Notes: generated from the letters alone by a model not told the origin. 64,000 bases of DNA from Lingula anatina (GCA_051362555.1 CM120640.1:60242788-60306787); one strand, 5' to 3'. Counted from the first letter of the stretch, positions 37,711-64,000 are shown. Numbers and translations: made by a program.

Positions 37711-38074
37711 CTGAAAGATAACCACGATTCAAGATGAACACACTAAATACTAAAAGGTCTGATATTGTTTTTGTTTTACCTTACCTGAACGCTGAAATAG
37801 AGCACAAAAAGGACATATCTTAATGGCATAACAAAGTGAGCAAGAGACAGTTTGACACCTCTGGCTAACTTTGCAACACTATGTCGTTCAGCACCTCATC
37901 CTCTCAGTCTGTAAACTACATAATCGATGGAATTTCAGTCAATTTTAAATGTGATATCCATTTTTGACTTTAGCCTACAAAACTCATCTTTCTCTATTCG
38001 TACCTTAAAGACGACAAACTCCCTCGACCGAAATTACCCGATGTCAATATTAAAATGTCAAGAAGAGTCTAAGA

Positions 38075-39576: not shown

Positions 39577-40086
39577 CCAAAACTTAGCTAGCTTCAGCTG
39601 CCAGTCTAAATGCTGGAGTGAATTCAGTTATCTGCAAAAACTACATCTTAGACACGAAAAATTGAAATTGCAGTCATTAACATTGATTTATTTACACAGG
39701 TCGTCATCAACAATATTTTTTTAAATCGCTGCCTACAGACCGTAGTATGTTGTTCGGCTCCTGACAGAGGGAAGCATTTTACTTTGAATGTAGGATGGAT
39801 TTTTATGGCATCAGAGCTATAACATATTCTATAGCATTTATAATAGTCAGACATTGTCCCTTCAGTACTGTAGTTTTACTCTAAAAGGCGCGGCTCACGC
39901 AGCTACCCATTGTCCTGATGTGTTAGTTGTATTGCATCGCAGACTGACTACACAGTTCCCAGTCATCTATTGTCCTCATAGATGAGCACTAGTAGCCCCT
40001 CACATTAGCGCCGACCACAAGACAGCGTGAGAGGTCATTTCTCCGGCTCAAAGCGAAAAGTGCACAAAGAGAAAGAGCTGACAATC

Positions 40087-42018
40087 ATGGAGTTTGTTTC
40101 AAGCGGGGACGACGAAGATGACCCACTTCATACAAATAGTTTATTCAGTACATCTTTCACAAGGCACTCCACATCAGTGAGCAAAACACAAACTTCGACA
40201 CCTGATAAAACTGAGACAACAATACTGTCAGAAGATTTCACCTCAGCTTTTTTTAACCCAAGTACAGTCAACGCCAATGGAGCATTTAATGTCATCTATC
40301 CAACAACGCCAATGTCAACAACAAGGCGTTCCTCCAAAAATATCATCGAGTACGTCAGAAACGATGGGGTAAGTCTAGGCGTGCTGATCCCTATGGTGTC
40401 CCTCTGTGCGTTCTTACTGTTTGTGATGGCATGCCTATGGTGGCACGCTCGCAAGGATAAACTCGAAGCTAGAAGGTTAAAAGCAATGGCTAACATAAGA
40501 GCTAGAAATGGGATAGCTCTGACCAATTTTAACCATTACCATGACAGCAGTAGTTACTACCGGCCATGGAGGAGTTCGCCTGCTCTGGCTGACGGTACCA
40601 TCAGCGACAAAACCCCACTAAACACACAGGACAGGTTCGAGCACGTTATGTCAGAAAACCCCGCAGCCTCCTTCATTCCTTCAGAATTTGAACCTACATA
40701 CATGTTTGTAGAGCCTGCACAAGTCTACACCCCTAGCTCTGTCCTTCTGTCAGAGAGTGCCCGGGAGGATTCCATGAAGACAGACCAAAATATGAACTGG
40801 ATGACATCATGTAATACGTCCCCAGTCCCAAGGAGCACCAGCTACACCGGGTCTCATCTCTCCAAGTCTGATTCTCACATCTGGAACAAGATGTTATCGT
40901 CTGCCTGTACATCTGACATTTCCCACTACCAGCTCACCTGGGTAAGTCCACGACGGCCCAATGAAACCATGTCGGAGCCCACCAATGTTGGCCTGCCAGA
41001 GACCTGGGACTCAAGCACCGATTACCATCCTCCAAATAACACACCTGTTAAAAGGACAAGCGAATCTACGAGTACTGGCAGTAAAATAATCAATTACTCA
41101 TACAAATCTCCTTTCCATCCCAAGTTCAATACTCCAAGTGTTACCAATGACAGCGATAGCGACGTATTTCTCTCTTCTGCCGAGTGTGCTGTTGTGTACC
41201 ACACCCCCGCCCGATCACAGCAGAGCGGAGCAAAAAATGCTGCTGGATTTCAACCTAAAAACACGGTGTCGACTGGCACGGGAACGCCCCCGCGTGGCAG
41301 TAGCGAGAGAAAGATTTCCGAGGGCTCCCTCTCCAGAAGAATATTTGTTCGAGGAAAATTATATCACGGTATCGACGCAGCGTCTGACGTTAGCGCAGCT
41401 CTCAGTAGCCTAAGTAACAATGGTTCCTGGCAGTACAGCACACTGTATCAGACCTTACCCGGGCCAAACGTCTCAACCGCACCTAGCACCGCACTAAGCA
41501 TAGCGATTGCGCCACCACAAAGCAGTAACACATCTGTGGTGGAGCAGATGTTCCCGTCAGCGAACACCTCCCTCATCCCCCAGCCCGGCAGTCAAAATAC
41601 GTCAGCTCTCCACGCGCAAAGTGCCGTCAACTCGAACAACACGTCAATTTGCCCTGTCACGGGTAGCGGTAACGCCACATCATTAGAGCATCTGGCCATC
41701 GAGTCCAGTCAGCCGTCCACTTTGCCCAGCAGTATAGCCCCGTCACATAGCAACTCTTTCATCCACACTGGTCAGGAAACTGCCACCGACGTGAAAGCCA
41801 GGGCTGAACCCACCTCGAGCAAAGGTCGCATGCGGAGTCTGGAGTGGGATAACTATCCATTCAGCGCAACCCACCAGTCCCTTGCTGATCTGCCTGGAAG
41901 AGAAGTCAGTCCCAGCGGTGGTAACGTTGTCCACCATATACATTACCATATGCCAAGAGAACCATCGACTCGCGTCTGGATACAACCCTTACTGTCAAAA
42001 GCACAATACTGGGTTTGA
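40087..42018 (+). CDS. Uncharacterised single-pass membrane protein with a long Ser/Thr/Pro-rich cytoplasmic tail (intronless as seen; first ATG 40087)
   Basis: A 663-codon open frame. A Thr/Ser-rich N-terminus is followed by the hydrophobic segment LGVLIPMVSLCAFLLFVMACLWW and the basic HARKDKLEARRLK. The protein ends QYWV. Confidence 0.82.
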   Translation: MEFVSSGDDEDDPLHTNSLFSTSFTRHSTSVSKTQTSTPDKTETTILSEDFTSAFFNPSTVNANGAFNVIYPTTPMSTTRRSSKNIIEYVRNDGVSLGVLIPMVSLCAFLLFVMACLWWHARKDKLEARRLKAMANIRARNGIALTNFNHYHDSSSYYRPWRSSPALADGTISDKTPLNTQDRFEHVMSENPAASFIPSEFEPTYMFVEPAQVYTPSSVLLSESAREDSMKTDQNMNWMTSCNTSPVPRSTSYTGSHLSKSDSHIWNKMLSSACTSDISHYQLTWVSPRRPNETMSEPTNVGLPETWDSSTDYHPPNNTPVKRTSESTSTGSKIINYSYKSPFHPKFNTPSVTNDSDSDVFLSSAECAVVYHTPARSQQSGAKNAAGFQPKNTVSTGTGTPPRGSSERKISEGSLSRRIFVRGKLYHGIDAASDVSAALSSLSNNGSWQYSTLYQTLPGPNVSTAPSTALSIAIAPPQSSNTSVVEQMFPSANTSLIPQPGSQNTSALHAQSAVNSNNTSICPVTGSGNATSLEHLAIESSQPSTLPSSIAPSHSNSFIHTGQETATDVKARAEPTSSKGRMRSLEWDNYPFSATHQSLADLPGREVSPSGGNVVHHIHYHMPREPSTRVWIQPLLSKAQYWV

Positions 42019-42703: not shown

Positions 42704-45700
42704 CTAGCGTCTTCTTGTGCCTCCAAATCCTGTTGAAAATCAAAAATATTTGAACTGAGACAATCCTATCCTATATCAAACATAATAATGTAATATTTTT
42801 CTCTGTACTTTACATGCATATTTTACATCTGTACATACATATTTTACATCTTTTAGCCGTCATATATCATATTTCTAACCTAGTCCATATATTCTGAATA
42901 AAAAGAATTAGAATAATCTTGTCAACTGCCTAGGAACTACCCTGGGATCGTCTTGTTGCTATGGATGACAGGCAGTTGATAGACATCCACAAAATTTTTG
43001 TTAAGAGATAGTGTAAGAATACATAATGATGTGTGTTTAAAATATAATACAATGACCTTACCATGAAGCTTAAGGTATAAGATATAATAAGACCCACTAA
43101 AAACCAAAGCAACTGCTCTATTAACTTAAAATAACAACATTATCTACCATATCTAGATTTATTCATCAATTTCTGATAGGTGCACAACTTACCTGATGCT
43201 GTTCTAGTTCCAGTGCTGCCAGAATTTGATCCCCAAGACGATGAACTGCTTGAAGACCTCCCAGATCCCCAGTTAGAGCTCCTGTTGGAACCCCATCCAG
43301 ATCCCCATCTTGATCCCCATCCAGATCCCCATCCAGATCCCCATCCTGATCCCCATCCAGATCCCCATCCAGATCCCCATCCTGATCCCCAGCCAGGGCG
43401 ATGATGATAATAATGGTGTTGTCTTGACCTGTTACTACCCAGTAAATATCCTAGGATGCCACCACCTGTAAACCCTGACCAAAACCCTCCCCCAGTAGAC
43501 TGACCACTATTGGTATCTGTCCTGGTGTCTGAACAATAACCTGAAACACAAATAACATTCAGTTTTATTTTATATGTATACAGCATGATTTCAGGTTATA
43601 AAAATCTCTCATAAAGCCCATTTCGAACAATACTACTATGGGTCAACAATCAAACTACTTTTTCATCAAAAGAACTTAAACATGAATATTGGTCTTAACC
43701 ATTATAGTCTGCTTTTAAGATAAATTAACAGAAGTTCAATTAAATGCCCTAGGGGACCCGTCTTATAACATAAAATCTGCTAATATTTCAGAGCAAGGAA
43801 GACTTTGTGAGCTACAATAGATTAATTTTCATAGTAGAACAAATTTGAAGTCTTAATTTTAAGACTACTTCTGGGCTAAAGATGTGAACCTAGCCCCTAT
43901 TCAAATGTAAACCTGTTCCAAAAGTATGTACAATGGCCATGGTATTTTGTAATCAATGTTTTTCTTCAGTGCCACCCTTGACACTGTGATAAAGGATTTA
44001 TGATAATCCCTTTACATACCTCCTTGTGTCTGTGTACACTCTGGCCTGAATCCTGGGGGTGGTGGTGAAAACCCTGAGGGCGGTGGCCCATAGTTCCCAG
44101 ATGTAGCATCCTGATATGAGGGTGGAGCTTCATAAGGTGGTGGGGCTGAGGGTGTTGGTCTTTGGTACCCAGGGGTACCAACAGGTGGGGCATCTTGTGC
44201 TCTGTTTGGTGTAGACAGACACATCTTGTAGATTCCATAGATCATCAGACACACTATAGCAAACACCATCAGGTCACCAAAGAATGTGCTGTGCTTTTTT
44301 GGCTTGAAGGAGGAATAGCTAAAATGTGCGAAAAAATAAGTTTGTTCTTTAATTTTCATTTCACTTAACTTACACATTTCTGAAATGCTTAAATAATGGA
44401 TTTTTTAAGAAAATGAACTATTTCAAAGGCATGTACTCTGATTTAGACAGTTGTGTGGGAAAGTGAAATATGCTAGAATTTATACATACACATTATTTTT
44501 TTGACAGATTTAGACAACTTAAATTTTGAATGTTTCAAGGAGGAAGATCGTTTAAAATTTCATGAAAATTCAACAATCATCATTCTATGTGATGATGGAT
44601 ACCTGTCATGGTGATGATCACTGTTAGGATAGTACTGATGTCCTCCCTGACGCTGCTGCTGTTGGTAACCTTCTTTGGTAAAATCTATAGTGTATTCCAG
44701 CTAAAAATGTAAATATTTAAAATCAATCAAACTTATTTATCAATTCTTATGCAAACAATATACTTATTTATCACACTGAGTGTATATCATACCAAAATGG
44801 CAAAAACATTAATAAAAATTAAAGCAATGTGTCACATTTTTGATAAATCTTATTTAAAAACTTCATAATAAATTATATTTTACCCATTGTTTTTACCCAT
44901 GTTTTATATTTACATAATAATAAATAAATAAATAAATGACTGTTATTTGCAGGAACTTGATAACTGGAACCTACACCACAAGATCCTTTGAGAATGTTTG
45001 GGTCATCTGGATATTCGTAACCTTCACATGTCACCTCCACTTTACCAAATCTGACTGCATTGTCCATGTCTGTCTTACACTCCCACTGTAAGAATTAAAA
45101 GCATATTATGGCATATATCTAATGACAAAATCTATTTATATGTATTATGTATAAGGTGGTTTGTTTGAAGTGTTTCTTTGGCTGGGTTAGTATGTATTTC
45201 AGCTTCTAATTAACAGAATGACAAATAAATTCATTTTTGTATAGCTATTATTCTTTAAATACAAATTAATAAATCCCATTACTTTAGTATCATTATAGAC
45301 CTATTCCATTCATCAAGCAGTTCTATAACTGAAACAGAATTACACCAGTATATTTTTCTAAGCTTGTCATTTGCTTATCCATTGTGATGATTTAAGAATG
45401 GCTGAACAATAATGCTTGTTTCACCAGATTTGGTGCTGCTCACATTATCATATAGACACAAACATGTTATCAATAAATAGCAGAATTCTTTACCTGTAAA
45501 TCACTGCCATCAGATCCCATGTTATAACATTGTACCACCTGGGGCACAAAGGCTGTACACCCTGCTGTACCACCAACACACTTTAACTGTGGTACTGGGG
45601 AAGACCTACGACCATTGGTCATCCTACCCTGAGACAGTGTCAAAGTTTTAACGTCTGATAACAGGACCTTATCTTTATTGCCTGAAAATGAACAATTCTG

Positions 45701-47347: not shown

Positions 47348-50029
47348 ATGGCAGAAGGGGGGACGCTGGCCTTGTTGCCACAAGATCAGGGAAATGCCGA
47401 AGAACAATCTGATGAGGTTTGAAATTGAAATTTCATTAGATCTAAGTTTGCCTTGTGATTAGTGTCACGCCAAGTCAGGCATTAAAAGTGCCATTATAGA
47501 TATGACAGTACTGTGGTACTGTTTTTAACCTTACTCTGAATGCATTAGTACTATGTCAACATACTTATTTATCTTCAGAATTGCACAGGTACCTGTAGCA
47601 ACTACTGTACATGTACTGAGTACATGTACTCGATCAGTACGAAGTACTACAGTACATGTACTGAGTAGTAGTCATGTACGTCAAAAATCTAAGGCAGTGT
47701 ACCCAGTACACGTACGGGGTTGCTAACATGTTAAACCACAGTGGCCAAAGGATGTACGTAGACCCACTATTTGGTAAAACTTTAACATGATACCATTGGG
47801 AACAATACGAAAGGCTTGTATCATGTCCAATAATGGCATGTGCAGCTGAAGTTATCCTGTACATATACATGTATATACAACTGGACCCAGTTTCATCAAC
47901 TATGGATAACACTATTCTTTGGTTATAATTGTTATCCTCTGGAAATTTATCCTGAGGAAAGCAGCATTTTTTAACCACTGGAATTCGGAAAGCAATATCA
48001 GAAACAAAAATAAGTATCTGGTGTTTGGTAAACATTTCTTTACTCACAGGATAATTGCCCAGAAGATAACAATGCATAATTGGACCAAATATATTAATTT
48101 TTAAAACACAAAGAGTAGTGCAAATTGACAAATGTATCTCTTAACCTCATTTTCAGGTACTGGCTTTAGATTCTATATTTGATGGCACTGGCAGATTTCT
48201 TGTTGTGGATGGTCCACTTCAGGATGGAGACAGGAAGAAAAGCCAGGAATATGTTCTTCAGGTACAAATAAAGTGTATCATAGCCTTTTGAGACAGAGCT
48301 AATTTTTTCATGAAGCTGCTTTTTTATCATCATGTACAGTGTTCCATAATACTGTCTGTATTGGCTTGCAATTGATCTCAGACTATCCTTCCTTACATCC
48401 CTGCTTAAGTGTACATGTGTATATTATAGTATACAGTATATGCATACTGGTACAGGGTTCCTCTTTTTTAGCCAAATCACAACAATCTTACTAGATTTAC
48501 TACCCTGTAGAGCCACCTGCTCCCTAGCCTAAGTCTTCCTTTTCTTCCACTTTCTTCTGACAGTAAGTACAGGCAGTTGTAGAAAAACCTATAATTGATA
48601 TAATCAGTGAATTTGTTAATACTGGCACATGCCAGCTTACTGTATTGGGATTTATGCTAGACAATACTGTTTTTCTGTGATTTGAGATCTGAAATATTTT
48701 GTAATATTTAAATTGAAATGCTAGGCCTTTTGCACAACAAAATATGTATCATGCAATGTTTGTTCATGTTCATTTACCCCAATATCTGTTTTTCTGTGTA
48801 GCTGTGTTTGAATATATAAGTACATGTACCTCTGTTTTCTTGAAGATACTTGTTCAAGTGAAGCTCCCAAATGAGGAAATCTCTGTAGAAGCCTGGGTTC
48901 CAGATGATCATGATATAACAGCCACTTATCAAGCCATGGCTGAGATGCCACCAAGCAACAGGCCAAAGTTTGAGAGATCTTGTTCAGGTGGGGCTAAGCC
49001 ATCTAAATATCATAATGTCACTTCCTACAACAGATTTTGATAAATAAACCAGTAAGTCATGTAGGACTAAATTATAAGTGAGTTCAGTATGAATAAAATC
49101 ATTTCATGGTACATGGACATTTGTGGCATTGATTTAACTTTAACAAAGCATATTTTGGCATAAAAAGGTAATACTATAGCATTGCCAAAGTATTTCATAT
49201 TCTTTTCCATTATTGTAATTATTATTGTGTCAGGGAGAAGATGGCTGACTGCCTTAAAGATGAAGCACCTGACCCCTATGTGTCTCCAGCTGACCTTACC
49301 CAACAGTTACCCATCCCAAGAAGCCCCCTCCTTCAGCCTGTCCTGCCTGTGGCTGACTGCCACCCAGCTGGGGGCACTGTGCCAGCAGATGGACAAGTTG
49401 TGGGAAGAAATGCATGGGATGCCCATCATTTATACATGGGTGGATTGGCTGGAAAACAATGCTCTCAAGTAATCTTAATTTTTCACTTGAAAATAGTAGT
49501 ACGTATATTATGAAAAAGTTATGTTGCTGGAGTTATGGTGTGTGAGTTATGTTATTGACAAAAAACATTGTCTATGGAGGAACACATGGTTTTCATGAAT
49601 GCCATTTTTCATTAAATATGATGAGAACTGAAGTGAAAGTTGTTTTACAATTGTTGTTCTTATAACAAATTAGAATTTAATTGATAACGAGAAAAGAATG
49701 AAAAACATGTACCCAGTAATATACATTTTGTTTCTTCAATTACTTTTGAATGTTGTCTTTTATTTCAGTTTCCTAGGTATAACTGATACAATAATTATTA
49801 GTCCTCCCATAGATTTTGGGCCAGATCAAAGTATTATAGACCAACGTGCTATCCCTGAATGCAGTGACTTGGAATCTGACATTTTGACAATGCTCAGGTA
49901 AGGGCCCAAATGGTATCAGGACAGCCCAGCCTCCCCTGGATCTATAGCATATAAGAATTTTAGGTGACTCTTAGGTCTGTTTAAGTGCATAAGTGAACCC
50001 AAATCTTGTAATAAATAGCCAATACTTTC

Positions 50030-50063
<34 letters not shown>

Positions 50064-53000
50064 CAAAAGCAGTGTACTGAGGTAGTATTTTCTCCCCTGG
50101 GAAGGGGTGTGTGTCTTGTTGGGGGGGGGGGGGGGGGGATTGTCCTAGAATTGGCTCAAATACTGGAAAAATTGCAGCATGTTATGTATTGTGGTTACAG
50201 TATATGTTGATTTATGAGGAACAGGGGTATTGATACTTTTATTTCAACACTGCAGACTCTTAATAGATTGAAGCTCTAGATGAAAATTGCAGTGTAAGAA
50301 TAAGAATTTTGTTACTCCTTCTAAAATGCTTTTATTTATCTCTATCAGATATAGTGCAGCCCAAGAACTAGAGGAGTTTCATAAGAGCCAGCAGGAATGT
50401 GAAATTTGTTTTGAGGAGAAACAAGGATTTGATTTCTTCCGCCTGTCTGATTGTAAGCATCACTTCTGTAGAGAGTGCATGACAGGGTTTTGCCAGATGC
50501 ATGTGAAAGAAGGCACTGTACAGCAGCTCAGGTAGAAAATGCTCAGGATTGGTACTTTTCTTCTTGAATTAAAATTATGTCTTCTTTGGTTTACAAATAG
50601 TACACTCAAAGAAAAATTGAAGAGCAACCAGTTTACCTCCATGTAATATGTGTAGGTTAAGTACATTGCTTAATTCAAATATCATAGAAAGGACTTGTTT
50701 GCTACATATTTAGAATTCATGGTAAAATTTGATACCTACATGCATATTGCAGGTGTCCTAATAATGAGTGCAAAGAAACATTACCACCATTTATAGTAAG
50801 GGAAGTGCTTGGAGAAGAAGAATATATAAGATGGGAAAGACTCCTGCTACAGGTAAACTATTGGTAACTTATTTATATTGGTTGATGAAAAAGGAGCAAT
50901 ACGTTGTGGATTTTACCTATTCATATATGAAAAAAGATCTAAATTAATAATAATAATAATAATATTTATTTCTTTTATAGCGCATTCCATTTTTTACATT
51001 TCAATGCACTTTACAAATAATTAAAAAGTCTAAAAATAACAATACTAAAATACTCTAACATTTACTGATAAAATTAATTAATTAAAGAAAGCAGAGAAAA
51101 TTTATTGATATAACTTTAAAATACTACTAAAATTAACCCAATTATTACTTACGTTTTAAATTAAACATCTTTTTCACGTATGTCACAAATAATTCCATGT
51201 GCATCATTACACAATAGTGATTTGTCACACATGCTGTGCATTTGGTTGTGATGTGCATCACATCTTAATGGTTTCATACAAGATAGGTCATAATATTTCC
51301 AGAGAGCATTGGAAACTCTTGGTGATGTGGACTGGTGTCCAAGGTGCAACAGCCCTGCCACACGAGAAGAAAATTTTGCTCACTGCACATACTGCACATA
51401 CAGTTTCTGTACACAATGCAGGGAACCCTCTCACAAGGTGATATTCCAGTACCTTGTTCACTAAACATTCAGCATGTATTGTATACAATGAATGGAACCC
51501 CCCCTCGCCTTGGCCTTTCCATATCTAAAAATTTGAACTACTTTGTTAGTTATCAACATGGTGACATATGAAGATGAATTAAAAATAAGTTGCCGTATTA
51601 TGTTTCATATACTTAATATAAATACACACAAATAGGAAAGAAATTAATATCCTGGCAAGTCTTATTTATATGAATCAGTTCTGTTAACCTTTCTTGACTA
51701 ATGTTTAGGAGTGCTGCATGATTATTGTGTACTTAATTGTAGGGCAGTAGATGTTCAAGTATAGAGGAAAAAATTCAGAAACTGGAATCAGAAATGAGAG
51801 CTGTTGGCATTGATGAAAATGTACAGTGTTCTCAAAGAAGGAAGCGGGAATTAATCAAAGAATTGCTTCTGTCCAAAGAACAAATTGATAATGAATGCAA
51901 GAGATGTCCAAAATGTCAAGCCCCAATATATAAGTTTAGTGGGTAAGTATATCTTCATTCAGTTTGAGTTCTGAATGTGAGGTTGTGCAGTTACAGGTAC
52001 AGAATTATGTTTGTGTATTTACAGAGTTATGTTCATTCATTATACATTCTTGCATTGGTATGGTCAGTGAAAATTGGTAAAATGTTGGATCTTCTGTCTC
52101 TCTGTCTGTCCAGTCCTCCCAGCCATGCATTTGTTGTGGACCAACATCCATCAGCAATGTCTATTGTCCCAATGACAGTAGTTTTTACTTGAAAAACTGT
52201 GCGAGTCAGTGGAATGATTTTAATCATTATTCTATCAGTTTCAATTGTTTAATTCACTTTCTGTTTTACACAAATTGGAATTTCATGTCTGTTTGTTTCT
52301 CTTTGGACATTAACCCCTGTCCCAGGGATAAGGTTCTTCAGACTAGCGACAGATTTCTGATTTTTTGGGTGGTCCCAGGTGTTGGTGCTTACAACAGTAA
52401 TGACATATTTCTGATATCTGACAATCGGGGGGATTTCTAACTTTTTGGGAGCCAAAAAGTCTCATCCCTGCTGTCCCGTCTTCCTTAAAAAAAACAGATG
52501 TTTGACAAATGTATTTGCTTGACCATTTGAAATCGTGCAGCCTTGTTTGTTTTGTTTTTTTTTTTTTATTTCCAGGTGTAACAAAGTGGTGTGTACCAAT
52601 TGTTCTACAATGATGTGCTTTTTGTGTGGCAAGAAAATTCAAGGATATGATCACTTCCAAGATGCCAAATGTGAGCTATTTGCTATGGAGCCACTTGTGA
52701 TACACAGAAGACAACTACAACCACGCCCCCGACATGAAGTAATTTTTTTCCTCAATCAAATAACTTTTGATGGAATTTGCAGGTGTAGTTCCTTAATTTT
52801 ATGTGCATTTTTAATGGACACCAACAGGCAATTTGAGTCTGGACATTTATGTTATTTATATTTTATTTTATTTTATTTATCTCTCTCTGTTTCATATACA
52901 TATGTTGCACGTAGGTCAGAATTGTACACAATATTAATAAACATTTATCTATTCAAAGGGGGCAGTTCGTGTTGAAGCCCAGTTGGAGGAAGACCCAAAT

Positions 53001-53183
53001 GCAAAGAATAACTTAATGAAGTGTTTGAACTGCAAGCAGCCAAACATAAGGCAAGATAAAAACAACCACATCAAGTGCTGGTGTTGCAAGATAAATATGT
53101 GCTTTATGTGTAAGAAGCGTTTTCAGGAAACTGTTACACAGCACTATACCTCAAGTAAACCATGCCAGCAGCACACTGATTGA
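47348..53183 (+). CDS. RNF14: RBR E3 ubiquitin ligase, RNF14-like (RWD-RING1-IBR-RING2 plus an extra C-terminal Cys-rich module). Exons 47348-47416, 48157-48261, 48846-48987, 49234-49468, 49769-49897, 50349-50531, 50753-50852, 51303-51437, 51743-51942, 52576-52738, 52959-53183
   Basis: RWD: EEQSDEVLALDSIF and HLTPMCLQLTLPNSYPSQEAPSFSLSCLWL. RING1: CEICFEEK..CKHHFCRECM..LRCP. IBR: DVDWCPRC..CTYCTYSFCTQC. RING2: CPKCQAPIYKFSGCNKVVCTNC..CFLCG..YDHF. Confidence 0.88.
47600..47680. repeat. GTAC/TACATGTA-rich degenerate repeat
   Basis: Repeated GTACATGTACTGAG units in RNF14 intron 1. Confidence 0.6.
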
Positions 53184-56100
53184 ATGAGGAGTACAACAGT
53201 TTTTTCATATAGAAAATCTTGTGAAAGCAAGGAGATTAAGTCCCTCGCCAGTAATCAAACTTAATGCAACATTTTATTTATCAACTTGAACAGAGTTCCT
53301 GTGTGCCATTAATACACTCACAAGTTGTAATTTTTCTGACCTCAATTTTTGTTTAGCCCAAGTGCTTTATTATAAAAATTAAAGCACTTTTATACCAGTA
53401 AAAATGAGGTTTTGTGATCTGTAAATACTAAGTGTGTGATATCATGTCATTCTGTGAAAATATAATAATATGTTTTTATCAATAAAATTTTATTTCTGGC
53501 TACCATGTTACCTCTTGCAGCCCCTTTTTTGGGATATTTGTAAGTAAACAAGTTAAATTTTGTACATTTATACCCCTATTGAACAATTATTTTACTTAAA
53601 AACATCACTGTTATACATGTATGTATGGTGCCCAGCGTGAGGCGCAACCGGTACCATACAGATAACCTCTTGCAGTCCTCTTTTTTTTTTTTTGGGGGGG
53701 GGGGCATATTTGTAAATGAGCAAGTTAAATTTATTCACGAGAAGTCATTCTCACAAGTCGTTATTTCCCACAAAATTGGCTAAAAAGCAGTAACCACACT
53801 ACCGGTAGTTATCATTCATCCCCAGAGCGTATGAAAGAATAACTGGATATGAACACATTATTAATCGGATAACCGGCATGTTACTCTGCAGTCTCGAAAA
53901 GGTTTGGTGACTTCGAAATATGTTAATGCGACTCAACACGTTCGTCACACTTAGATTTTGGCTCGTTTCTGCGTTCAAACAAAAGGTGTCCTTAAACCGC
54001 GAGAGGACGAAATATTTCCCTTGTAACAAATTGCCCTTTTAATGGTTTTGCAAACTGTGAAACAAACGCGTTTTTATTGTAGACAGACTACAACACGTTT
54101 AATAAGCAACGTAACTAGGTTTAACTACATTGTAATATACGGATATTGTATCCTACTACTATTCCTAGTTATAATCTAGGCCCCAACATACTAAGCCAAT
54201 CAAGGAGTGAATTCATAAGCAGACATAATAAATGTATGTACCGCGCCGGAATATCTGAAGCAGGATGCACCACTGACAAGTTGTTTTTCTAAATATATAT
54301 TTATATATGATCATTGACGATTTGTATTTCAAATCATTAAACGGAATGTACTAGTAATATGTTCCTGTTATCTTTGAAAATGAAATCACAAAATATTATT
54401 TAAGACTAGGAACGTAACAAGTATTAGGCTACTTCGACCACAAGATATTGTGACTGCCTTATTTTCCCCTTTTCTGGGTGCATGTGTTGTATACTGCCAG
54501 GTTGCCAATGACATTTTTTAAAGAACACTGAGCATTGTATTATCCCACCCAAAGAAAGCCAACATTATATTTTACAGACTTCATTCAAAGTGGTATAAAG
54601 GAAGTCAATGAACTGTAAACAGGCTAACATCTATAATTTGTTGATTGACCTGATGTCAAATGCGTCTGAATGGCAATCTGTTTTGTCAATTGTTTCTTTA
54701 GAGTTTTTGACTACTAGTATGTAAACATCAACGTTTGCATGCATCATTATCGTTGTTTACTGTTTAGGTATTACACCTAGAACAAAACTTTCATTTAAAA
54801 TGCTGCAAATGAATCGGAATGAATATAGATTAGGCCTTCGAGTTAACCTATGCGCGGTACATTGTCTACATGCTTTTTGTTAGGATTTGTTAGCGTTTCA
54901 AACCCGTATAATTGGCCACGTGACATCATAAATTTGTTTACGTGTCCGAGGGTCCTTTTTACTTGGCTTTGTTAAAATTCTGATTAAAACAGAGCTGAGG
55001 CACCAAACAACAAACAGGTGGGGAGTGTGGATATGGACACTACAGAATGTTTCAGTTTGCATCAACAATTTTAATTGCTTAAAAGCTCAGTAATGTAAAG
55101 TTCTCGTTACTACACCGTAGCGGTATTAGTACAGCACTGGCTTTACCGGTACATGTAGCTGTCATAACTGGGTTAAATGCGTTAAAAGTGCACTTCATTA
55201 AGTGTCCCGGCGGAGGTTCACTTCGACCATATTTCGGTTCTTAAACTACAGCTAAGTGTTCTGAGGTGTTGACAGTGTTCCCTTTTCACCGTTCAGTTTG
55301 TTCCAGTTTGCATTATCTAGCTCACTCTTAGATCAGCTACATTTTTGTTGATTATGGTCCGCGCTGCTTAAATTATTTTACGGATGGTCTTCGTAATAGA
55401 TTAATTTCATTCCACGTAGCTGATGTATTGCAATATTCTTGACTGCTGTCTATTGACATTCCGTACAACGTACAACAGTGGTGCAAATGTACATGCAGCA
55501 AATATTTCTGGTTGCAATTGGTATTGATTATATGTCGATATAACTTTACAGCTTGCGTTACCGGCATCCCAGCTAACGCTTTGGAAAAGTTAGTGCTTAA
55601 ATCTTTTTACCGACGCAAAAACTTTTTTGATAATGTTATAAATATGTTATCGATAATACGGTTAAAAGAAACACTTACATAATTTTTTACATGTAATGTT
55701 ATGGCTCTAAACATGGTCAAGATACTGCTATTATATACGCCATTAGTTAACATCAATAGTATTTTTTATGTTATATATATACAATTTATATAAACTCTGC
55801 ATAAATAGTTTATTGGTTTTCATATAAAATAATTGCGTTTAAAAATATCCCTATGATGTTTTAGAAAAAAAACATTAAAAAGCTAATAATAATTAATTGA
55901 AAACGTTTTCAAGGCGTGTGTTAGCTGGGGTCGTAGATCAAAATTACATATTTAAAGGTAAATCACTTAGCCGTTTAGGGCTGGACCTTAAGTGAGGTAC
56001 TAGTAACTGCAAACAACCTCCTCTGTTATGTAGCAGGGATCATACCCATGACCAGTATGCTATTGAAATGTCAATTTTTTCTTTGTATTTCAGATTTTCT

Positions 56101-56406
56101 TTCGTATGTGCTGTATAGTTTATTGGGCGTGATCTAAAAATAACCAATAGACACCACGAATCATTCCCATTATCCTTGCTACCTTGAGACAGCACAGCGC
56201 AACATACAAAGTTAAAAAAAAGTAATAAGAAAACAACTTTAAAGAACAAATACATCTCTCTCGGGACAATACGTGAAAGGTCCAGGGCTAGAGACTGCTC
56301 ACGTTAAGGTAGTTTTAAACGAAGAGGCAAGGTGAAGTTCTTGACATTACAGAAACTATCGAGACTAACACAGTAATAAGACACAAGTAAAAGGAACGAC
56401 TCCAAC

Positions 56407-59400
56407 ATGAGTGGATTAATAATAGAAAATAACAGCACGACTCGTACATATAATCAAGAACTGCAGAACATAAATGATCGCTTTTCCAATTATGTCCAGA
56501 TGGTCCGAAGTATCCGTGATCAAAGCTCCCAAGTGGAGTCAACTGCCTTTCTGACCTCAGTGCAGGTGTTGGAGAAGGAGGTGGTCAAACTCAAGAATAT
56601 GTATGAATACGAACTGGAAAAACTCAGGTAACAACATATCAGTCGATGCACAGATGTACTTTTTAATGTTCCGGGCACACTGAGTCATTGGTTGCACCTG
56701 CTGTGTCTGTCCTTTTTTGCCACTGTAACTTGAAGTTACATATAGAGCGAGCGTAGACATCCAGTATATATGAAGTACTTTTACGTGTTTCTTACATGGC
56801 TAAAATAAAGTCGACATGCCTTTGATATTTCTCCAAGTTGTACTTTTTGAAACTATATGATGCCTTTCAGTTGTTTTTTGTGGCAAGATTTTGACCTTAA
56901 ATGCATCTTTAAAATGAGAAACTTAATATTTTAATACGTCTTAATCTTATACACCTATGCCCATCCGTGTCGTTACAGATGCTGAAACAGTTGTTAATGA
57001 TTCTAGTAGAGCAAACCCCATGGATAATCCCCTCCCTCCGACAATCTCTCCCCAAGACAAACCCCTTCACAGAAAAGAAAAAAGGGTGCTTCTGAATTAT
57101 CTGTTTGAGACATTTATACATTTCTTGAATATTTTACTAATGTAAAAAAGAAGACAGAAAATGACATTGAAATTAGCTATTTTAATAAATGTACGAATTC
57201 GGACAGCTTACTTATGCGCTTAGTGGTGACCTTAAACTATTAAGTGCAATAGATGCAATTTTTGCAAATTTGCCATAACATGACATTTTAAATCAAACAA
57301 ATACTATCATTTCATCAAAAGGATACATGGACGAGTGAGATTATTTCCTTTACACCTGTACCTTGAGATACGTTTTTTTAAAGGCAAACATTTATAATTT
57401 TTCTCAACATCACATTTTTATTCAGAGTATGGTATTCATAACAGGAGGGGGGTTGTCCGAGAGGAGGTTATCCCGGGGGTGGGGGTGGGGTCTTGATACC
57501 GCCAAATATCTGATATTTGCCAAGTTGTATTTTGTTTTACGTTAAATAAAGAAGTTTCCTTTGGCAAAAAGCTGTGTTAGAAAATCCTATTTACTAAAGT
57601 TATTAATATTTATTTATTATTTTGCATAATATTTGCTAGATTCACAGCATAACTGTCATACCGTGTTTTGTTTTACTTAATATCACTTGATTTCTTCCCT
57701 TTTGCAAAAAGGAAGGTAGAATTAGAAAATTATCTTTGTCAAATCATTTTATTGGATTTTTTGTGACGTTCACCACATAAATGTCAAACTATTTTTTTAC
57801 TCGAAATTTGCTAGTAGGTTTGGATAATCAGCATAATAGGTAAATGTTCACAAAATTTATTGGTGGGAATTGTTCGGAATCTAGAGTACCACCAAGCTGA
57901 AAGTAGCTGATAAAATGAACTTTTCCGATATTTCATCGTATATATGCCAAACAAAGATGTGATTTAAGTCATATTTTTTCCATTCTTTAACAGGAGACGC
58001 CTGGATGATGTGAACCATGAAAAGAGCCATTATCAGGCACAGAGCGTGAAAAACGAGAATCTAGCTTCACAGCTTCAGAACCAGCTTCACCAGGAGACAG
58101 ACAAGAGCAACGGCTTGTTTGACCAGTTGAATGTTCTGCACAGGACCATAGCACAAAAAGAGCATGACTTTCAGAGAACTTTGGAGCAATTACAGATGGA
58201 CTACACGAATGTTCTCAGGGAAAACCAGGAATTAAAAAAGAGGTTTGGCATTGACTTGGCACATGGATTCGTTTGTATGTGGTTTAGATAGTAAATTTAA
58301 GGCATTTTAAATAGAGGGCTGTAAGCATCAGATATACTTGGGCACAATCCGACAACTTGCCTCTTCTTCTTCTTCTTCTTCTTCTTCTTCTTCTTCTTCC
58401 TCTTTTTTTTTTTTTTTTTTTTTTTTTGTCCAGTGATACATCTACATCCAAAAAAGGGCCTTGTTTTTTTTACTAAGTGAATTAAATTTGGGCAAATTTT
58501 GCGAAATTGGAAAAGTCAAAGAAATAAAACTCGTCAGATTATGAATCATTTTAGTTTTAACTCGAACTAAGGTACAAAACTAAAACAGAAAAATTCAAAT
58601 AGAACGTTTTGACTATGATTATGATCGTTTGAAATCAATTTTTAAACAAGAATTTTGGTAACTATTTTGCAGCTTATGTGCACAAACGTTGATTTTGACT
58701 TTTGAAAAAAATTGGGTGAAATTATTCTACGTTTTAGGGCGGGTTTGTTTCAAAGTTTCCAATTTCTCACATGTGTTTAGTACTTTTCTTAATCCTTCCC
58801 AATGATAAGAGTTTTTGCCAGAAAAAAGGCTGTGCTATAGCATTTTCACATTTTTGCAGATTTTGAATCTTTCATGATATTTCATTCTGCCATTTCTCAA
58901 TCAGATTTCCATTTTAGTTATTATAATTGATTTGACAGCATTAAAGGCATTGGCTAAAACATACCGAATTCATTTTTCACAGTTCCACAAAAATAATATT
59001 ACAAATGTTCCTAAAATCTGCAGACGTCTACTGGCGAAATAAATTTCTTGATGACACCAAATGGACATGCCTCTCACACTCCTGTAACATTTATACAAGA
59101 CGGTTTTCCATCAACCTTGTCGCTTTTAGATTAAGTCGATGGCTTTATACAATTTAAGAATAATAGTTAAATAAGTAAATACTTGATGAATCAATTAAGA
59201 GACGTGTCAAACGACATGTGTATAAACACCGGTAGCCACTACATGAAACGTGAAATGCACAAGGAAATGAGCCGTATGTGTAGATATTTCAGGTAATGTC
59301 CCAAACACGTTGTATACCTTCTAAATGATATTAAGATCAGAAAAAAATTACCAATGCCATATTTTTTTCCATTTTCAACAGATGTGAACAAGAGACAATC

Positions 59401-61489
59401 AACAGACAGGAGGTAGAGCACAGGAACCGCACGCTTCAAAATAAAATGGATTTTCAACAACATGTGTCAGCTCAGGAGATGAAAGATATCAGGGTGAGGC
59501 TGGACAGCTCTGCTAACACTATTCTTCACCTGGAATCTAAGGTGAAAGAGACAGTAATGACGAACAACAATCTTGTGGAAATGTTACAGAGAGTGAGGGA
59601 GACAGCACAGGCCGAGTTAGACAGATATAAAATCGAATCGGAAGAGAACTTCAGCAGAAATGTAAGTACATAAATATTATATCTAATTATTTTTAGATTA
59701 AAAATTAGATCAAAACCTTTCCTTGTTGTTTGTTAGAGTTTTAGTAAATTATTTCAAGGTAAATTCTCAAAGTTATTTGACTTTAATGAATAATTCCTAG
59801 AATGCTATTATTTCCCTCTATCAGGCTTCTGCCTTAAAGGCACACGTGGAAATTGATCGTCGAAATTTAGAGGCCATGTCTGCTGAAAATACGAAATTGC
59901 GCAGTGAAGTGGATTTGCTGGCAGTCAAGATAAGAACTCTCAGAGAACAGGTAGTGCAGAACTGGTTGCTTTTCTTTGTAGTTATGTTTAACTTAAAAGT
60001 GTGCAGTACTGGACATTTTACGACAAAACGGATTCAAATAGCTCATTGCCTCTAGACGATAGTTTCATGGCCCTTAAGATTGTAACCAACGGGTTCGTCC
60101 AAATGATGAGACCACGTTTGATACTTAGATATGGTACCTCACATTCATGTTTGCCAGTTGCAATAGATCGACAAGCTAACCAGTTTTCATGTCGCATCCA
60201 GCTAGTCAACTCTGACAAACTTTGGAACTCATTTTCTAGCCGATGTCCAGCAGTGATAGAATCACTGTGTAACAATCACTTATGCATAGTTACTTGGATA
60301 CAAAACCTACCACACGCTGTCGTACTGACAAACCAGTTGTTTTTATTTCTCATCTACTATGGTACACGACTGTATGGAACGTTTGCTTAAGTTTTCAGTT
60401 TAATTCAACAGTTTAAGTTTTAAAATCGGTTAGATCTAAAATAATCCTTTGCAAATTACCAAAAGCAATCATTAGATTTTAAAGTCGTTTTTGTCAAATC
60501 AAAATTACAGATGGCATCTTTAGAAACTGAGAAAAAGAACATGGGGGAGATTTTGGAGCAAGAGCGCCAGCGTTCTGCACATCACGTTCAAAGATTGGAG
60601 ATGAAGCTGCAGGAGGTAAATGACTTTCTTTTCCAAAAGATGAAGGAGGTTAATGCTGCTAAAGACGCACAGATCCCACTTAAAGCTGAAATAGAGACAT
60701 TCAAGACTCTGCTAGAAGAAGAGGAGAGAAGGTAAACATTCCTGTTTTGTGATAATACAAATGTTGGTTTTAGATATATCTTTTTCTGCAAGACGTTGTC
60801 ATCAAAGAATGCACAGAATATAAATTCATTAAGATCATGATTATCTTTCAGATTAAAACTACAAATGAATATGGAAAACAGCAAAATAACTCTGCCTCCA
60901 GTGATTTCCACTGCCCCTATCTCAAGAGATCTGAAAGCTCCCCAACTCATCTACACTCCCCATCCTCCCAACAACAACAGCAGGCAGCGCATTACCACCA
61001 ATGCCACCTCTTCACAGATGGTGAAAGCCAGTGGAGACCTTTGGGTTTCGCCAGAGATGAAAGCCACTGGTGTTACTGAAGGAGGCAGCAACAATGCACA
61101 AATTGCCCCAAAAACGGGGAATAAAAAATCGAAGAAAGTTTCTACAACGCATACTGATGTCGAGTGCACGAGATGCCGTAAATGCCGTGCTCCCCTGCAG
61201 AAGTTTGATGGGTGATTTGTCATTTAATTTTATTTTTTATTCAGTTCATTAGCTTGTGAAATAGATTGTAAAAGGAATGTAAATTGGTAAAATCAACATT
61301 CTTTTGTCTGACATTTTAATTTTATTACATTCATGATATCTGTTCATCATCTATTCATTTTCAATTATTTTCAGAGGTAGCAAAGTTGTGTGTAGCAACT
61401 GTTTTACGTGTGTGCACTACATGTGCGGCAAGGCTCTTGGTGGAAACGATCACTTTGAAAACCTCAAGGGTAGCCAAGCAGAATTATAA
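56407..61489 (+). CDS. Intermediate filament protein (long, protostome/lamin-type rod) with an RNF14-RING2-like C-terminal tail. Exons 56407-56627, 57994-58242, 59382-59661, 59825-59950, 60511-60731, 60852-61211, 61375-61489
   Basis: The rod starts with ELQNINDRFSNYVQMVR and ends with LKAEIETFKTLLEEEERRL, spanning about 350 aa. All junctions are GT-AG and phase-compatible. The tail is ECTRCRKCRAPLQKFDG|GSKVVCSNCFTCVHYMCGK..NDHF. Confidence 0.88.
58361..58427. repeat. (CTT)n microsatellite followed by poly-T
   Basis: Directly visible in the sequence. Confidence 0.9.
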
Positions 61490-61719
61490 ACAACCAACAT
61501 AGCTTATATATTTGTAAAAAGGCTATGATGAAATGTCTAACCAGTTAATATTGTGTAAAAACTTGTGACATTCAAAGTAGATACATGAAGAGCGAGAGAA
61601 ATAGCGCCAGTATACGATAATACATTCAGTCTGCACTCACGGAATCAACTGTCTGGAACACCTCAGCTCTGTGTGGGCAACTAGAATAAGGGACAAACAA
61701 GGTTATAAAATACCCTAGT

Positions 61720-62140
61720 TTAAGGATAACAACACTTCATTTTGACGGGAAAATTGTTATCAAACCGTATTTCTTGGGGTAAACCACAATTTCCCCTTGT
61801 TTACCAATGGATAAAGAATCCGTTCCAACATTCAAAGTTGGCCGATTATTTTAAATTAAACTTTTAATAAATTATTATTATTTTAAAATTTATGTTATTT
61901 TATTCATATATTATTATTAATATTAATAATAATATTCATATTATTTTTTTTAATTAAACTTTTAACAAATTATTACGGAGGGTAGCAATCTATGAAGGTC
62001 CACGTGGTCCAATGGCAAGCACAGATTTCAGAATAATTGCGATAAACGCCGTTTTGGTGGTAAAATGATATTTATTATATTTGTTTACAATGATTTATTG
62101 TGGAATTTTGAATTTCATGTGGAGAGTTGTTATATCGTTG
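61720..62140. mobile_element. Diverged relative of the 13553-14182 element
   Basis: Shared blocks in the same order: CTTCATTTTG..AAAATT, TTACCAATGG..CATTCAAAGTT, GCCGTTTT.GTGGTAAAAT, TTGTTTACAATG and GAATTTTGAAT..GAGTT.TTAT. Confidence 0.55.
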
Positions 62141-62244
62141 ACTTGATTGATTTGCTTTTCTTCAGATGTAGGCCTACATGTAATAATTCTGTTTTAATAT
62201 AAGTGATTTTTTTAACGTTATATAAAGAATCTAATGGTCAGTAA

Positions 62245-62482
62245 AGCCTAGGTCCCAATCGAACGTACGGGCTGCTACGTGTGGTCTACGGCCGAAAAAA
62301 AGGGGAAAACGTGGGAGTTCGTGCGTGAGGAGCACGTCCATCGTGCGACATTTGGAGGATGCAAAGAGCACATAGAAACTTTTCGACATGATCAACAGCC
62401 GTTACGTGCGATCTAGCTACGTCCTAGCCGGACGCAAGGAACCTAAAAATCGTGCGTCCAAAACGCAGTTGGGACCTAGGCT
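62245..62482. mobile_element. Tourist-like (PIF/Harbinger) MITE
   Basis: Perfect 14-bp TIRs AGCCTAGGTCCCAA / TTGGGACCTAGGCT, flanked by TAA on both sides (62242-62244 and 62483-62485). Confidence 0.85.
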
Positions 62483-64000
62483 TAAGTGATCTTGGGATTT
62501 TACCCTTTACGTGAAAACAGATATAGAAGAGGTTAGTTCAAGTGTATAGGCCTATGTGACGCTTCTCAAATAAAATAAATAAAAAAGAAGAAGAAAAAAA
62601 CGAGGTCCCACCCTCATGTTTGGTACGCTGTTTGAACTGCGTTACAATTTTAATGGACATTTTTGTCGATTCTTGTAGTTTTATTATCACGCACTTGGAT
62701 TACTTTTTAATTAGCAAGTGATAATCTGTTTGGAAAGTGTTTCTTATCTTTGATAGGGCCTACATGTATAACATCTACACTCCTCTTTTCACACTGTTCC
62801 AAGAAGAATTATAACCAAAAGAGCATGGCTTGTTTACCGAAACTTGTTGAAGTGAGGATGGCTTTTAATTTAAGCAAGGAGTTTCAACAGTTTCTGTTGT
62901 AACTCCTTGATTTAAGAGGACACAAATTTGTTTGTCTCATGTGTGTGCTTTATTTCCTTTACTCTTAATAAATGTATGTTCAATTTGTGAAGAGTATTGT
63001 ATTGTTTATTTTTGGGGAAAGGGAAATGCTTTCCTGGCGTCAATTGCTGATTTTGAAATTCATTGCAGTCAGTAGGTGGTAGTTTATATCCAGGTATTCT
63101 CGCCCTTCATCATCGTAAAAGTTCGGCAACTTTACCGCTGCCGCCAGAAGGCACTGTTTTCCCCTGGAGTATTTTCTATTTGCTATAATTCCATCAGAAT
63201 AAAAACACCCAATGTTTTTGAAGAATCTGTTTCATATGTTGTACACTAATACCAATGTAAGTTTTATAAATTAGTTCAACCTGTAACCATCAAAAGGTGT
63301 GTTCCTCTGTTGGGTAAAAAGTTGCCAACGCACCTGCTCACATGTTGCCTAACTATGAGATGCGAGGTGTGTGACCTCTTGTGTAAACACACTCGACCGC
63401 CTGAGCTTGGCAACAAACAACAAACTTCGGGAGAGCGTGGATATAGACACTACACAATGTTTCGGTGTATAATAACAAATTAGCATTGTTTCTTCAGATT
63501 TTGTAAAAGAAAGGGAATTTTGTCTGGAAACGGATAGAATACCGAAAATTTAAAAGAAGTCCAACCTAGAGCTAAGGGACAAGGATATTTAAAGTAAGTG
63601 AAGAGAAGATAAAATTTCAAGCACATTTCGCCGGCTATATTAGACTATATATAATGTCATGGTATATGGCATTAGCAAATATATTATATTATATTTAGGC
63701 AAATAGTGGCAAATAATTGACTTGTTTTCTATGGCGGTATATTTGTAAGAAGTACACGGTAAAAAGAGAAAAAATTACCCTATATTTTGAAGTCTGTAGA
63801 GATGGTGCCACATGACAAGAACAGAAATTCAGTTTCAATTAATGTATATTTTGATACCTGGTGCAGTTAAACATACAGTATTTCAGTATGTGACACAACA
63901 TGATTTAGTGTGTAGAAGATTAGCTTCACTAATCATTCATATAATACATTGTATTACTGCCTCATACCTTTCCTGTCTTAGTGTGTGTTTTTAGCAATTG

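What the first reader, a model, noticed from the sequence alone, without database searches (positions are those of the whole stretch)
60852..61489. Chimeric gene: intermediate filament with a catalytically dead RING2 domain copied from the neighbouring RNF14
Seen: the IF tail DVECTRCRKCRAPLQKFDG|GSKVVCSNCFTCVHYMCGKALGGNDHFENLK aligns without gaps to RNF14 DNECKRCPKCQAPIYKFSG|CNKVVCTNCSTMMCFLCGKKIQGYDHFQDAK, about 9 kb upstream (27/50 identical by hand count). Both are split by a phase-2 intron inside the same Gly codon (51942/52576 versus 61211/61375). The RBR active-site Cys (GCNK) has become Gly (GGSK). The first four Zn ligands are kept, and one later Cys is now His. Known: long-rod protostome IFs usually end in a lamin-tail Ig domain, and the RING2 Cys forms the ubiquitin thioester in RBR ligases. 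Inference: a local genomic duplication grafted two RNF14 exon pieces onto the IF gene. The open frame and retained ligands despite about 46% divergence suggest selection as a non-catalytic Zn module, perhaps a cytoskeleton-tethered pseudo-ligase or decoy. I do not know of a described IF-RING2 fusion.
Basis: partly seen in the sequence, partly recalled or inferred. Interest (0 to 1): 0.88.

Follow-up and report, generated by a model that had tools for sequence, protein, structure and literature searches.

The report
Cilin filament with captured dead RING2
A lamp-shell (Lingula) gene joins the rod of a duplicated intermediate-filament gene, likely of the cilia-associated cilin family, to a piece copied from a ubiquitin-ligase gene, likely the one next door; the piece has lost its catalytic cysteine and two predicted zinc ligands, so it is likely a young, weakly expressed, loosely constrained chimera and not an enzyme.

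Summary
The chimera is real. Seven GT-AG exons (56407-61489) encode 523 aa and match an independent RefSeq model of Lingula anatina (XP_013406849.1, 'lamin-L(I)') at 515 of 523 residues.

Residues 1-432 come from a duplicate of the Lingula cilin (nematocilin/LMNTD1) gene, not a canonical protostome IF. The join lies inside exon 6.

The catalytic Cys is Gly. Zinc site 1 is intact. The ubiquitin-binding linker helix looks eroded.

Selection is weak: tail omega ~0.5 (0.21-0.94); rod branch 0.27 versus 0.006 for the parent; 8 amino-acid differences between haplotypes versus 0 of 561 in RNF14. The frame nevertheless stays open. The tail diverged earlier than the rod, suggesting a two-step origin. 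RNA reads are few, lie on the exons, and show splicing only indirectly. No second example was found.

Verdict: a real, apparently undescribed IF-Rcat architecture; the pseudo-ligase or decoy role is unsupported.

The parts
56407..56627 (+). Exon 1: ATG, ~15-residue head and coil 1A of the cilin-derived rod
   Evidence: Splice model; Pfam Filament 4-60, E=3.9e-6; 58/74 identical to parent P0002
57994..58242 (+). Exon 2: coil 1B, with an in-frame loss of about 10 codons relative to the parent
59382..59661 (+). Exon 3: rod; parent-gene reads cross-map here and give dS 0.28-0.35
59825..59950 (+). Exon 4: rod, 24/42 identical to the parent
   Evidence: RNA reads
60511..60731 (+). Exon 5: coil 2B with the IF rod-end motif
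   Evidence: Pfam Filament 241-311
60852..61048 (+). Exon 6, 5' part (aa ~366-432): cilin-derived Pro/Ser/Thr-rich start of the tail, with in-frame deletions
   Evidence: Aligns to P0002 up to its residue 596
61049..61211 (+). Exon 6, 3' part (aa ~433-486): RNF14-derived IBR-RING2 linker and first CxxC of RING2. The fusion point lies near 61045-61054, inside the exon
   Evidence: DNA alignment
61212..61374 (+). Phase-2 intron at the same codon as RNF14 intron 51943-52575; non-consensus GT donor; in-frame TGA at 61213-61215 if retained
   Evidence: depth profiles
61375..61489 (+). Exon 7 coding part: rest of RING2. Catalytic Cys is Gly487; Cys492 and Cys495 kept; site 2 reads His500, Cys503, His512, Gly518; stop TAA
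   Evidence: RNA reads
61490..61871 (+). Likely 3' UTR: reads reach ~61700; AATAAA at 61866
   Evidence: the end is inferred
47348..53183 (+). RNF14-like RBR ligase gene, 11 exons, 561 aa (RWD-RING1-IBR-RING2 plus an extra IBR-like domain), the likely donor; identical to RefSeq XP_013407476.1
51791..51942 (+). Donor segment 1: linker and first half of RING2, within exon 51743-51942
52576..52687 (+). Donor segment 2: catalytic Cys434 and second half of RING2, within exon 52576-52738

Best explanation
This is a transcribed chimeric gene, likely young and likely restricted to Lingula, in which the rod exons of a duplicated cilin-family intermediate-filament gene are joined in frame, inside an exon, to a degenerate RING2 fragment likely copied from the neighbouring RNF14-like gene, and its protein is predicted to act as a non-catalytic coiled-coil subunit with a one-zinc cap in place of the lamin-tail domain.

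Shown: the gene model, the two-parent homology, the shared intron, the loss of the catalytic Cys and of two site-2 ligands, the absence of RING1, IBR and LTD, faster protein evolution than either parent, and low-level exonic RNA reads.

Inferred origin: two DNA-level steps. An older tandem or partial copy of RNF14 arose just downstream of RNF14; later a copy of cilin exons 1-6 landed in it and read through into its last two RING2 exons.

Inferred function: the rod would dimerise and may join filaments in ciliated cells or sperm, where cilins are reported. The tail would fold around zinc site 1 only. It cannot form the RBR thioester and likely does not bind ubiquitin. Selection mainly keeps the frame open, with weak constraint on the tail core.
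For: Gene model: matches an independently predicted RefSeq protein at 515/523.
Rod: sister to P0002 at SH-aLRT 100, inside a clade with three LMNTD1-named vertebrate proteins at 100 against 12 lamin-like rows. The parent shares a post-LTD tail with them, E 1e-13 to 2.5e-12.
Tail: 42% over 84 aa to RNF14, including the linker.
Relaxed selection: branch 0.27 versus 0.006; relative-rate p<0.05 with 8 of 9 outgroups; 8/523 versus 0/561 amino-acid differences between the same two haplotypes, Fisher p=0.003; tail omega 0.48 (0.21-0.94).
Some selection remains: P(no stop in 432 codons) is 0.001 at d=0.13 and 0.03 at d=0.07; all indels against both parents keep the frame; pairwise tail dN/dS 0.18-0.47.
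Two steps: tail d per branch 0.69 (0.35-1.16), with 0 of 3466 accepted simulations at or under 0.17, versus total rod dS of 0.28-0.35 in exon 3.
Expression: exon reads in 3 of 6 runs laid.
Against: No splice joint reached the tool's listing floor of 3 reads per run; splicing into exon 7 is inferred from depth (about 1 read in X8, about 2 in X9), and about one X8 read runs into intron 6. The 3 positive runs are from one study; 3 runs of two other studies showed nothing on the exons. No protein, localisation or assembly data exist. The head is ~15 residues and coil 1B is ~10 residues shorter than the parent's, which may prevent filament assembly or in-register pairing. The rod dS rests on 74 codons that passed a likeness filter in a truncated table, so gene conversion or bias could explain the age gap. 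Other Lingula RNF14 paralogues could not be searched because no genome is held. The AlphaFold models are low-confidence for both tail (pLDDT 50.8) and donor control (45.8).
Confidence: 0.55

Rival explanations
1. A decaying duplicate: a truncated cilin copy picked up a stop codon and poly(A) site by reading into an RNF14 remnant, and the tail is a passenger. The gene is on its way to becoming a pseudogene.
For: Nearly all rod change is on the chimera branch. There are 8 replacements between haplotypes, one in the coil-1A consensus (N23H). Tail differences by codon position (16/14/23) resemble a neutral simulation at d=0.35-0.45 (14/14/19 to 17/17/22). The omega interval reaches 0.94. Expression is low: 13 of 16 reads at 59529 and 15 of 17 at 59628 carry the parent's letter.
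Against: No stop or frameshift in 523 codons in two haplotypes; neutral P(no stop) is 0.001-0.03 for the rod and 0.13-0.24 for the tail core at d=0.25-0.45. Splice sites are kept. The omega median is 0.48 with P(>0.8)=0.11.
Confidence: 0.27
2. A selected pseudo-ligase or decoy: the dead RING2 on a filament binds ubiquitin, an E2~Ub or RNF14's partners and localises or dampens RNF14 signalling.
For: The catalytic Cys is lost while all four site-1 Cys are kept (P about 0.04 site-blind). The copied piece covers the linker plus RING2, the module that binds donor ubiquitin in RNF216 and HOIL-1 (PMC9834252 passages). The best Foldseek row is HOIL-1 RING2, though only at E=0.17.
Against: RING1, the main E2-recruiting module per the same paper, is absent. 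The donor linker's Leu/Ile residues are replaced by Lys, Ser and Thr (read by eye). Two of four site-2 ligands are lost. Expression is low and no orthologue was found. 'First four ligands' is a post-hoc choice.
Confidence: 0.1
3. The fusion protein is largely an annotation construct: most transcripts keep intron 6 and end at TGA 61213-61215, giving a 486-aa tail-less IF with half a zinc finger.
For: The donor is non-consensus (GTGATT); about one X8 read extends ~69 bases into the intron; no joint was listed in either lay.
Against: The RefSeq model of another haplotype uses the same junction. Depth in X8 and X9 starts in the bin holding exon 7's first 13 bases with none in the intron bin on that mate direction. 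Exon 7 keeps an open frame and both splice sites at the donor's position. Other donors in these two genes are also non-consensus.
Confidence: 0.08

Closest known systems
Cilin / nematocilin / LMNTD1 intermediate filaments (Kollmar 2015, PMC4448529; Kremnyov et al. 2025, 10.1101/2025.08.21.671432)
   Same: The rod is nested in this clade as sister to the Lingula member P0002; long lamin-type rod; no CaaX.
   Different: The LTD and the conserved nematocilin tail are gone and replaced by an RNF14-derived segment. The head is short, coil 1B is ~10 residues shorter, and evolution is fast. Kollmar describes cytoplasmic IF architectures as conserved within subtypes.
RING2/Rcat domain of RBR ligases (Lingula RNF14-like XP_013407476.1; RNF216, ARIH2, HOIL-1)
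   Same: Same Cys spacing for zinc site 1, same intron, 27/50 identity to the neighbour; Atlas feature hits to IBR families at 0.92-0.93.
   Different: No RING1 or IBR; catalytic Cys is Gly; two site-2 ligands changed. A 2014 review states that no obvious protein with an isolated BRcat or Rcat had been identified (PMC3940038).
Salmon-louse LhsLamin-C (Kollmar 2015)
   Same: An IF-family duplicate that lost its tail (NLS, Ig, CaaX) and gained an unrelated domain.
   Different: That is a lamin with an N-terminal PDZ domain; here it is a cilin with a C-terminal dead ligase domain whose likely donor is adjacent and identifiable.
LTD-less cilin-type duplicates in molluscs (Mytilus P0016, Dreissena P0018)
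   Same: Rods in the same clade with no LTD hit, so tail loss recurs.
   Different: Their tails show no RING2 similarity.
Young chimeric genes such as Drosophila jingwei and Sdic (recalled, no call)
   Same: Origin by duplication and fusion of two parents, with asymmetric fast evolution.
   Different: No retroposition here, since the donor intron is kept; the parent pair is new.

Membership tests
Intermediate filament proteins | Rod domain with conserved coil-1A and coil-2B end motifs | tested here: met
   Pfam Filament aa 17-366, 86.6 bits versus cut-off 40; best PDB hit lamin A/C, E=1.7e-9
Intermediate filament proteins | Assembles into filaments | not testable with these tools
   Needs protein work; the short head and coil-1B deletion raise doubt
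Cilin/nematocilin/LMNTD1 | Rod groups with the cilin clade | tested here: met
   SH-aLRT 100 with LMNTD1-named rows against 12 lamin-like rows; 32 of the 50 rods were used
Cilin/nematocilin/LMNTD1 | Ig/LTD domain followed by the conserved nematocilin tail | tested here: not met
   Absent from P0001; no remnant in 53200-64000; present in the parent P0002. So the gene is cilin-derived, not a full cilin
Cilin/nematocilin/LMNTD1 | Expression in ciliated cells or sperm | not testable with these tools
   Run tissues are coded
Nuclear lamin (the RefSeq label) | CaaX end, LTD and grouping with lamins | tested here: not met
   No CaaX or LTD; outside the lamin-like clade, 8 of whose 12 rows end in a CaaX-like motif
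RBR E3 ligase | RING1-IBR-RING2 triad | tested here: not met
   Only linker and RING2 are present; no other RNF14 exon was found in 53200-64000
RBR E3 ligase | Catalytic Cys in RING2 | tested here: not met
   Gly487 aligns to donor Cys434, which aligns to the GCN cysteine of RNF216 and ARIH2
RING2/Rcat (IBR-fold) domain | Zinc site 1: four Cys | tested here: met
   Cys474, 477, 492 and 495 kept in sequence; zinc binding itself untested
RING2/Rcat (IBR-fold) domain | Zinc site 2: four Cys/His | tested here: not met
   Donor C/C/H/C is H/C/H/G; ligand assignment inferred from the ARIH2 alignment; a new Cys498 might substitute
RING2/Rcat (IBR-fold) domain | IBR/Rcat fold | tested here: inconclusive
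   No Pfam IBR hit on P0001; Atlas TM 0.56-0.65 over 51-61 residues, under its naming bar; AF2 pLDDT 50.8 and no Foldseek row under E=0.001
RNF14 as the specific donor | Tail groups with the neighbour in a tree of RING2 domains | not tested
   No RBR set was obtained; the assignment rests on linker homology, DNA similarity, intron position and adjacency

The most novel reading that the evidence does not exclude
A natural stand-alone, catalytically dead Rcat domain that has been selected as a binding module on a cilin filament, tethering ubiquitin-pathway or RNF14 partners to cilia or sperm flagella in Lingula. This would be an RBR-derived pseudo-enzyme caught at birth, with both parent genes still on the same scaffold.
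Probability: 0.12. Interest if true: 0.8.

Novelty: new variant of a known kind. Interest (0 to 1): 0.5.

Why it matters
It breaks two stated regularities: cytoplasmic IF architectures are conserved within subtypes (PMC4448529), and Rcat was not known outside the RBR triad (PMC3940038, as of 2014). Both parents survive nearby, so the origin can be reconstructed exactly. That makes it a clean case for asking how a captured enzyme domain decays or is re-used. Public annotation calls the protein 'lamin-L(I)' with only a Filament domain, so the tail has gone unlabelled. The limits are one species, low expression, weak selection and no evidence of function.

Tried and rejected
Genome search: no whole genome is held, so paralogues and the parent's position could not be checked.
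Second example: the word-index search with tail residues 425-523 returned only P0001 among 48 candidates. It also missed the known donor, so this is a weak negative. The HMMER search of 1.84 billion representatives gave 343 hits; of the 150 listed, none but P0001 had a best stretch beyond query residue 426. The tail matched only P0001 and P0005 among the 154 proteins then held. None of the 49 IF hits scanned had an IBR family. The 193 unlisted hits were not seen.
RBR set for a RING2 tree: not obtained (one search gave only the donor; one search gave 0 of 25 candidates confirmed), so no tail tree was built.
RNA: the index listed no RNA holder; six raw-read runs of nine were laid and three (X2, X3, X6) were not; no joint was listed. 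RNF14 and exons 1-2 were not covered by either lay.
Intron-body homology: not significant.
Structure: both AF2 models are low-confidence and cannot tell tail from donor; the wide structural search did not run because the machine was busy. No complex prediction was sent.
dN/dS: YN00 failed and LWL85 failed for 50 codons; 100 of 300 bootstrap samples were saturated.
Rejected: retroposition (intron kept); exon shuffling through introns (join is in an exon); lamin identity; canonical protostome cytoplasmic IF identity; an assembly artefact (same fusion in another haplotype's RefSeq model).
A basic patch at aa 453-461 resembles a nuclear signal (consensus recalled), but it lies over a basic stretch of the donor and one allele changes Lys460 (codon effect, whose residue numbers run one too high), so it was not pursued.
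Earlier scan findings: none.

Full report
OBSERVATION. The window holds two plus-strand genes in tandem. A search with exon 3 returned a 523-aa RefSeq protein of Lingula anatina, XP_013406849.1 'lamin-L(I)' (P0001), and a 1036-aa paralogue, XP_013408098.1 (P0002). One GT-AG exon set (56407-56627, 57994-58242, 59382-59661, 59825-59950, 60511-60731, 60852-61211, 61375-61489) gives 523 aa matching P0001 at 515 positions. The same fusion therefore exists in another haplotype and is no artefact of this assembly. The neighbour at 47348-53183 equals XP_013407476.1 (RNF14 isoform X1) at 561 of 561 residues. All three RefSeq proteins list a contig of 1,102,736 bases, which I read as the same scaffold.

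The core is 27/50 identical, BLASTP gives 42% over 84 aa at E=9e-17, and the DNA scores of 102 and 97 exceed shuffle maxima of 61.5 and 80. The phase-2 intron sits in the same Gly codon in both genes. The catalytic codon is TGT in RNF14 and GGT in the chimera; the donor Cys aligns to the GCN cysteine of RNF216 and ARIH2. The last predicted zinc ligand is also Gly, so site 2 reads H/C/H/G instead of C/C/H/C.

THE ROD. Residues 1-432 are 64% identical to P0002, which has Filament and LTD domains. In an IQ-TREE of 32 rods (of the 50), P0001 and P0002 are sisters at SH-aLRT 100. They lie in a clade with three vertebrate proteins named 'lamin tail domain-containing protein 1', at 100 against 12 lamin-like rows, 8 with CaaX-like ends. 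P0002's post-LTD tail matches those vertebrate proteins at E 1e-13 to 2.5e-12 and none of the lamin-like rows. Kollmar defines nematocilins as rod + Ig + conserved tail (PMC4448529, passages). A 2025 preprint unites nematocilin and LMNTD as 'cilin', enriched in ciliated cells and sperm (10.1101/2025.08.21.671432; abstract, passages, sections 10 and 15; it does not mention Lingula). So the chimera is a partial duplicate of Lingula cilin, and the intact parent remains. No other cilin or RNF14 exon was found in 53200-64000. Parent homology ends at residue 432 and donor homology begins at 434, both inside exon 6. The join is thus an in-exon DNA break-join; the kept intron excludes retroposition.

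EXPRESSION. No RNA holder was indexed, and nine same-species raw-read runs were offered; six were laid. At 95% likeness X7 and X9 had depth of about 0.2-3 on exons 3-7 and none in the bins that lie wholly in introns; X1 and X4 had none on the exons. At 84%, X8, X9 and X7 covered the tail and X5 did not. No joint reached the floor of 3 reads. Indirectly, one mate direction shows 0 depth at 61214-61300 and 0.16 (X8) or 0.34 (X9) at 61301-61387. That is about 14 and 30 bases, where exon 7 contributes 13, which fits about 1 and 2 spliced reads. About one X8 read runs ~69 bases into the intron. Parent reads cross-map on exon 3 and dominate: 13 of 16 at 59529 and 15 of 17 at 59628. The gene is transcribed weakly, and all three positive runs belong to one study.

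SELECTION. Rod: the end branch is 0.27 versus 0.006 for the parent, and relative-rate tests are significant with 8 of 9 outgroups. Between the same two haplotypes the chimera differs at 8/523 residues and RNF14 at 0/561 (p=0.003). In 74 codons of exon 3 the parent reads show 23 listed differences. I classed them by hand as 11 replacements (all matching P0002) and 12 silent, of which 2 may be shared alleles. This gives dN 0.064 and dS 0.28-0.35; the table was truncated and the region filtered for likeness. Tail: pairwise dN 0.35-0.44, dS 0.86-1.9, ratio 0.18-0.47. Because RNF14 contributes silent change only, I simulated the chimera branch, assuming donor omega 0.05 and forbidding stops: omega 0.48 (0.21-0.94), d per branch 0.69 (0.35-1.16). 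Keeping the first four ligands has P=0.04 and keeping 6 of 8 has P=0.10 under site-blind change. A neutral 432-codon frame would stay stop-free with P=0.001-0.03, and all indels are in frame. Conclusion: the frame is under selection, and amino-acid constraint is relaxed but probably not zero.

ORIGIN. The tail is further from RNF14 than the rod is from cilin (0 of 3466 accepted simulations at d<=0.17). The simplest reading is an older RNF14 duplicate later invaded by a cilin 5' duplicate. Gene conversion of the rod or an unseen RNF14 paralogue are alternatives I could not test without the genome.

MECHANISM. RBR catalysis needs RING1 to recruit the E2 and the RING2 Cys to take ubiquitin; donor ubiquitin binds the IBR-RING2 helix (PMC9834252, passages). 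The chimera lacks RING1, IBR and the Cys, and the donor's Leu/Ile linker residues are largely replaced by polar ones (read by eye). It cannot be a ligase and is a poor decoy candidate. Atlas feature hits are IBR-family clusters at 0.92-0.93, and its structure rows have TM 0.56-0.65, under the naming bar. AF2 models from a 2-row alignment are weak for both tail and donor. Foldseek's best row is HOIL-1 RING2 at E=0.17. I commit to a non-catalytic coiled-coil subunit, likely acting where cilin acts, with a one-zinc cap (0.55). The rivals are a decaying duplicate (0.27), a selected decoy (0.10) and a mainly intron-retaining transcript (0.08).

NOVELTY. No second IF-RING2 protein was found: weak; it missed the donor too; 150 of 343 hits seen. 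Ten literature searches listed nothing that by title or abstract start describes this fusion; 'Lingula' plus 'RNF14' gave 0 papers. The library lacks most subscription papers, and no supplements were read (sequence lists in the two IF papers might include this gene). PMC10125929 (passages) does not mention Lingula. PMC3940038 (passages) says no isolated BRcat or Rcat protein was known in 2014. The nearest precedent is the salmon-louse lamin duplicate that gained a PDZ domain. Chimeric young genes as a class are well known (recalled).

VERDICT. Observation confirmed, interpretation partly supported. A new variant of a known kind; interest 0.5.

Noticed in passing
window 52959-53183: The RNF14-like neighbour ends in an extra IBR-like zinc domain after RING2 (Pfam IBR E=3.7e-4), and its RING2 second half aligns closely to RNF216. 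The 'RNF14' name rests on RefSeq and the RWD+RBR layout; orthology to human RNF14 was not tested.
   Followed up: partly
window 54999-55071 and 63409-63481: A 73-nt direct repeat (78% identical, 8410 apart) flanks the chimeric gene; similarity does not extend beyond it. It may be a dispersed repeat or a trace of the insertion.
   Followed up: partly
window 31017-32384, 34876-35466, 37131-37742 (all minus strand): Three tandem ORFs share two motifs (W-x2-W-R-x3-N and G-I-P-R) and have no Pfam hit at E<=0.01: an unnamed small family or a repeated exon.
   Followed up: partly
window 62210-62517: MITE-like element with 49-nt inverted arms; RNA reads with loose ends show it is a dispersed repeat. 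The stretches at about 62000-62040 and 61801-61841 behave likewise.
   Followed up: no
window 38093-38310 and 6994-7613: A 220-nt self-complementary stretch (79%) and an 86-nt inverted pair (96.5%).
   Followed up: no
window 43140-44404 (minus), 29327-29857 (plus), 40009-42018 (plus): SARAF-like exons with a GWGS repeat, a weak LURAP-like exon, and a 669-codon ORF with a hydrophobic stretch and no Pfam hit.
   Followed up: partly
P0002-P0004 (RefSeq XP_013408098.1 and isoforms): Labelled 'centrobin', but it is the Lingula cilin/nematocilin (Filament + LTD + conserved tail). Mytilus P0016 and Dreissena P0018, labelled 'prelamin-A/C-like' in their clusters, are LTD-less members of the same clade.
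   Followed up: partly
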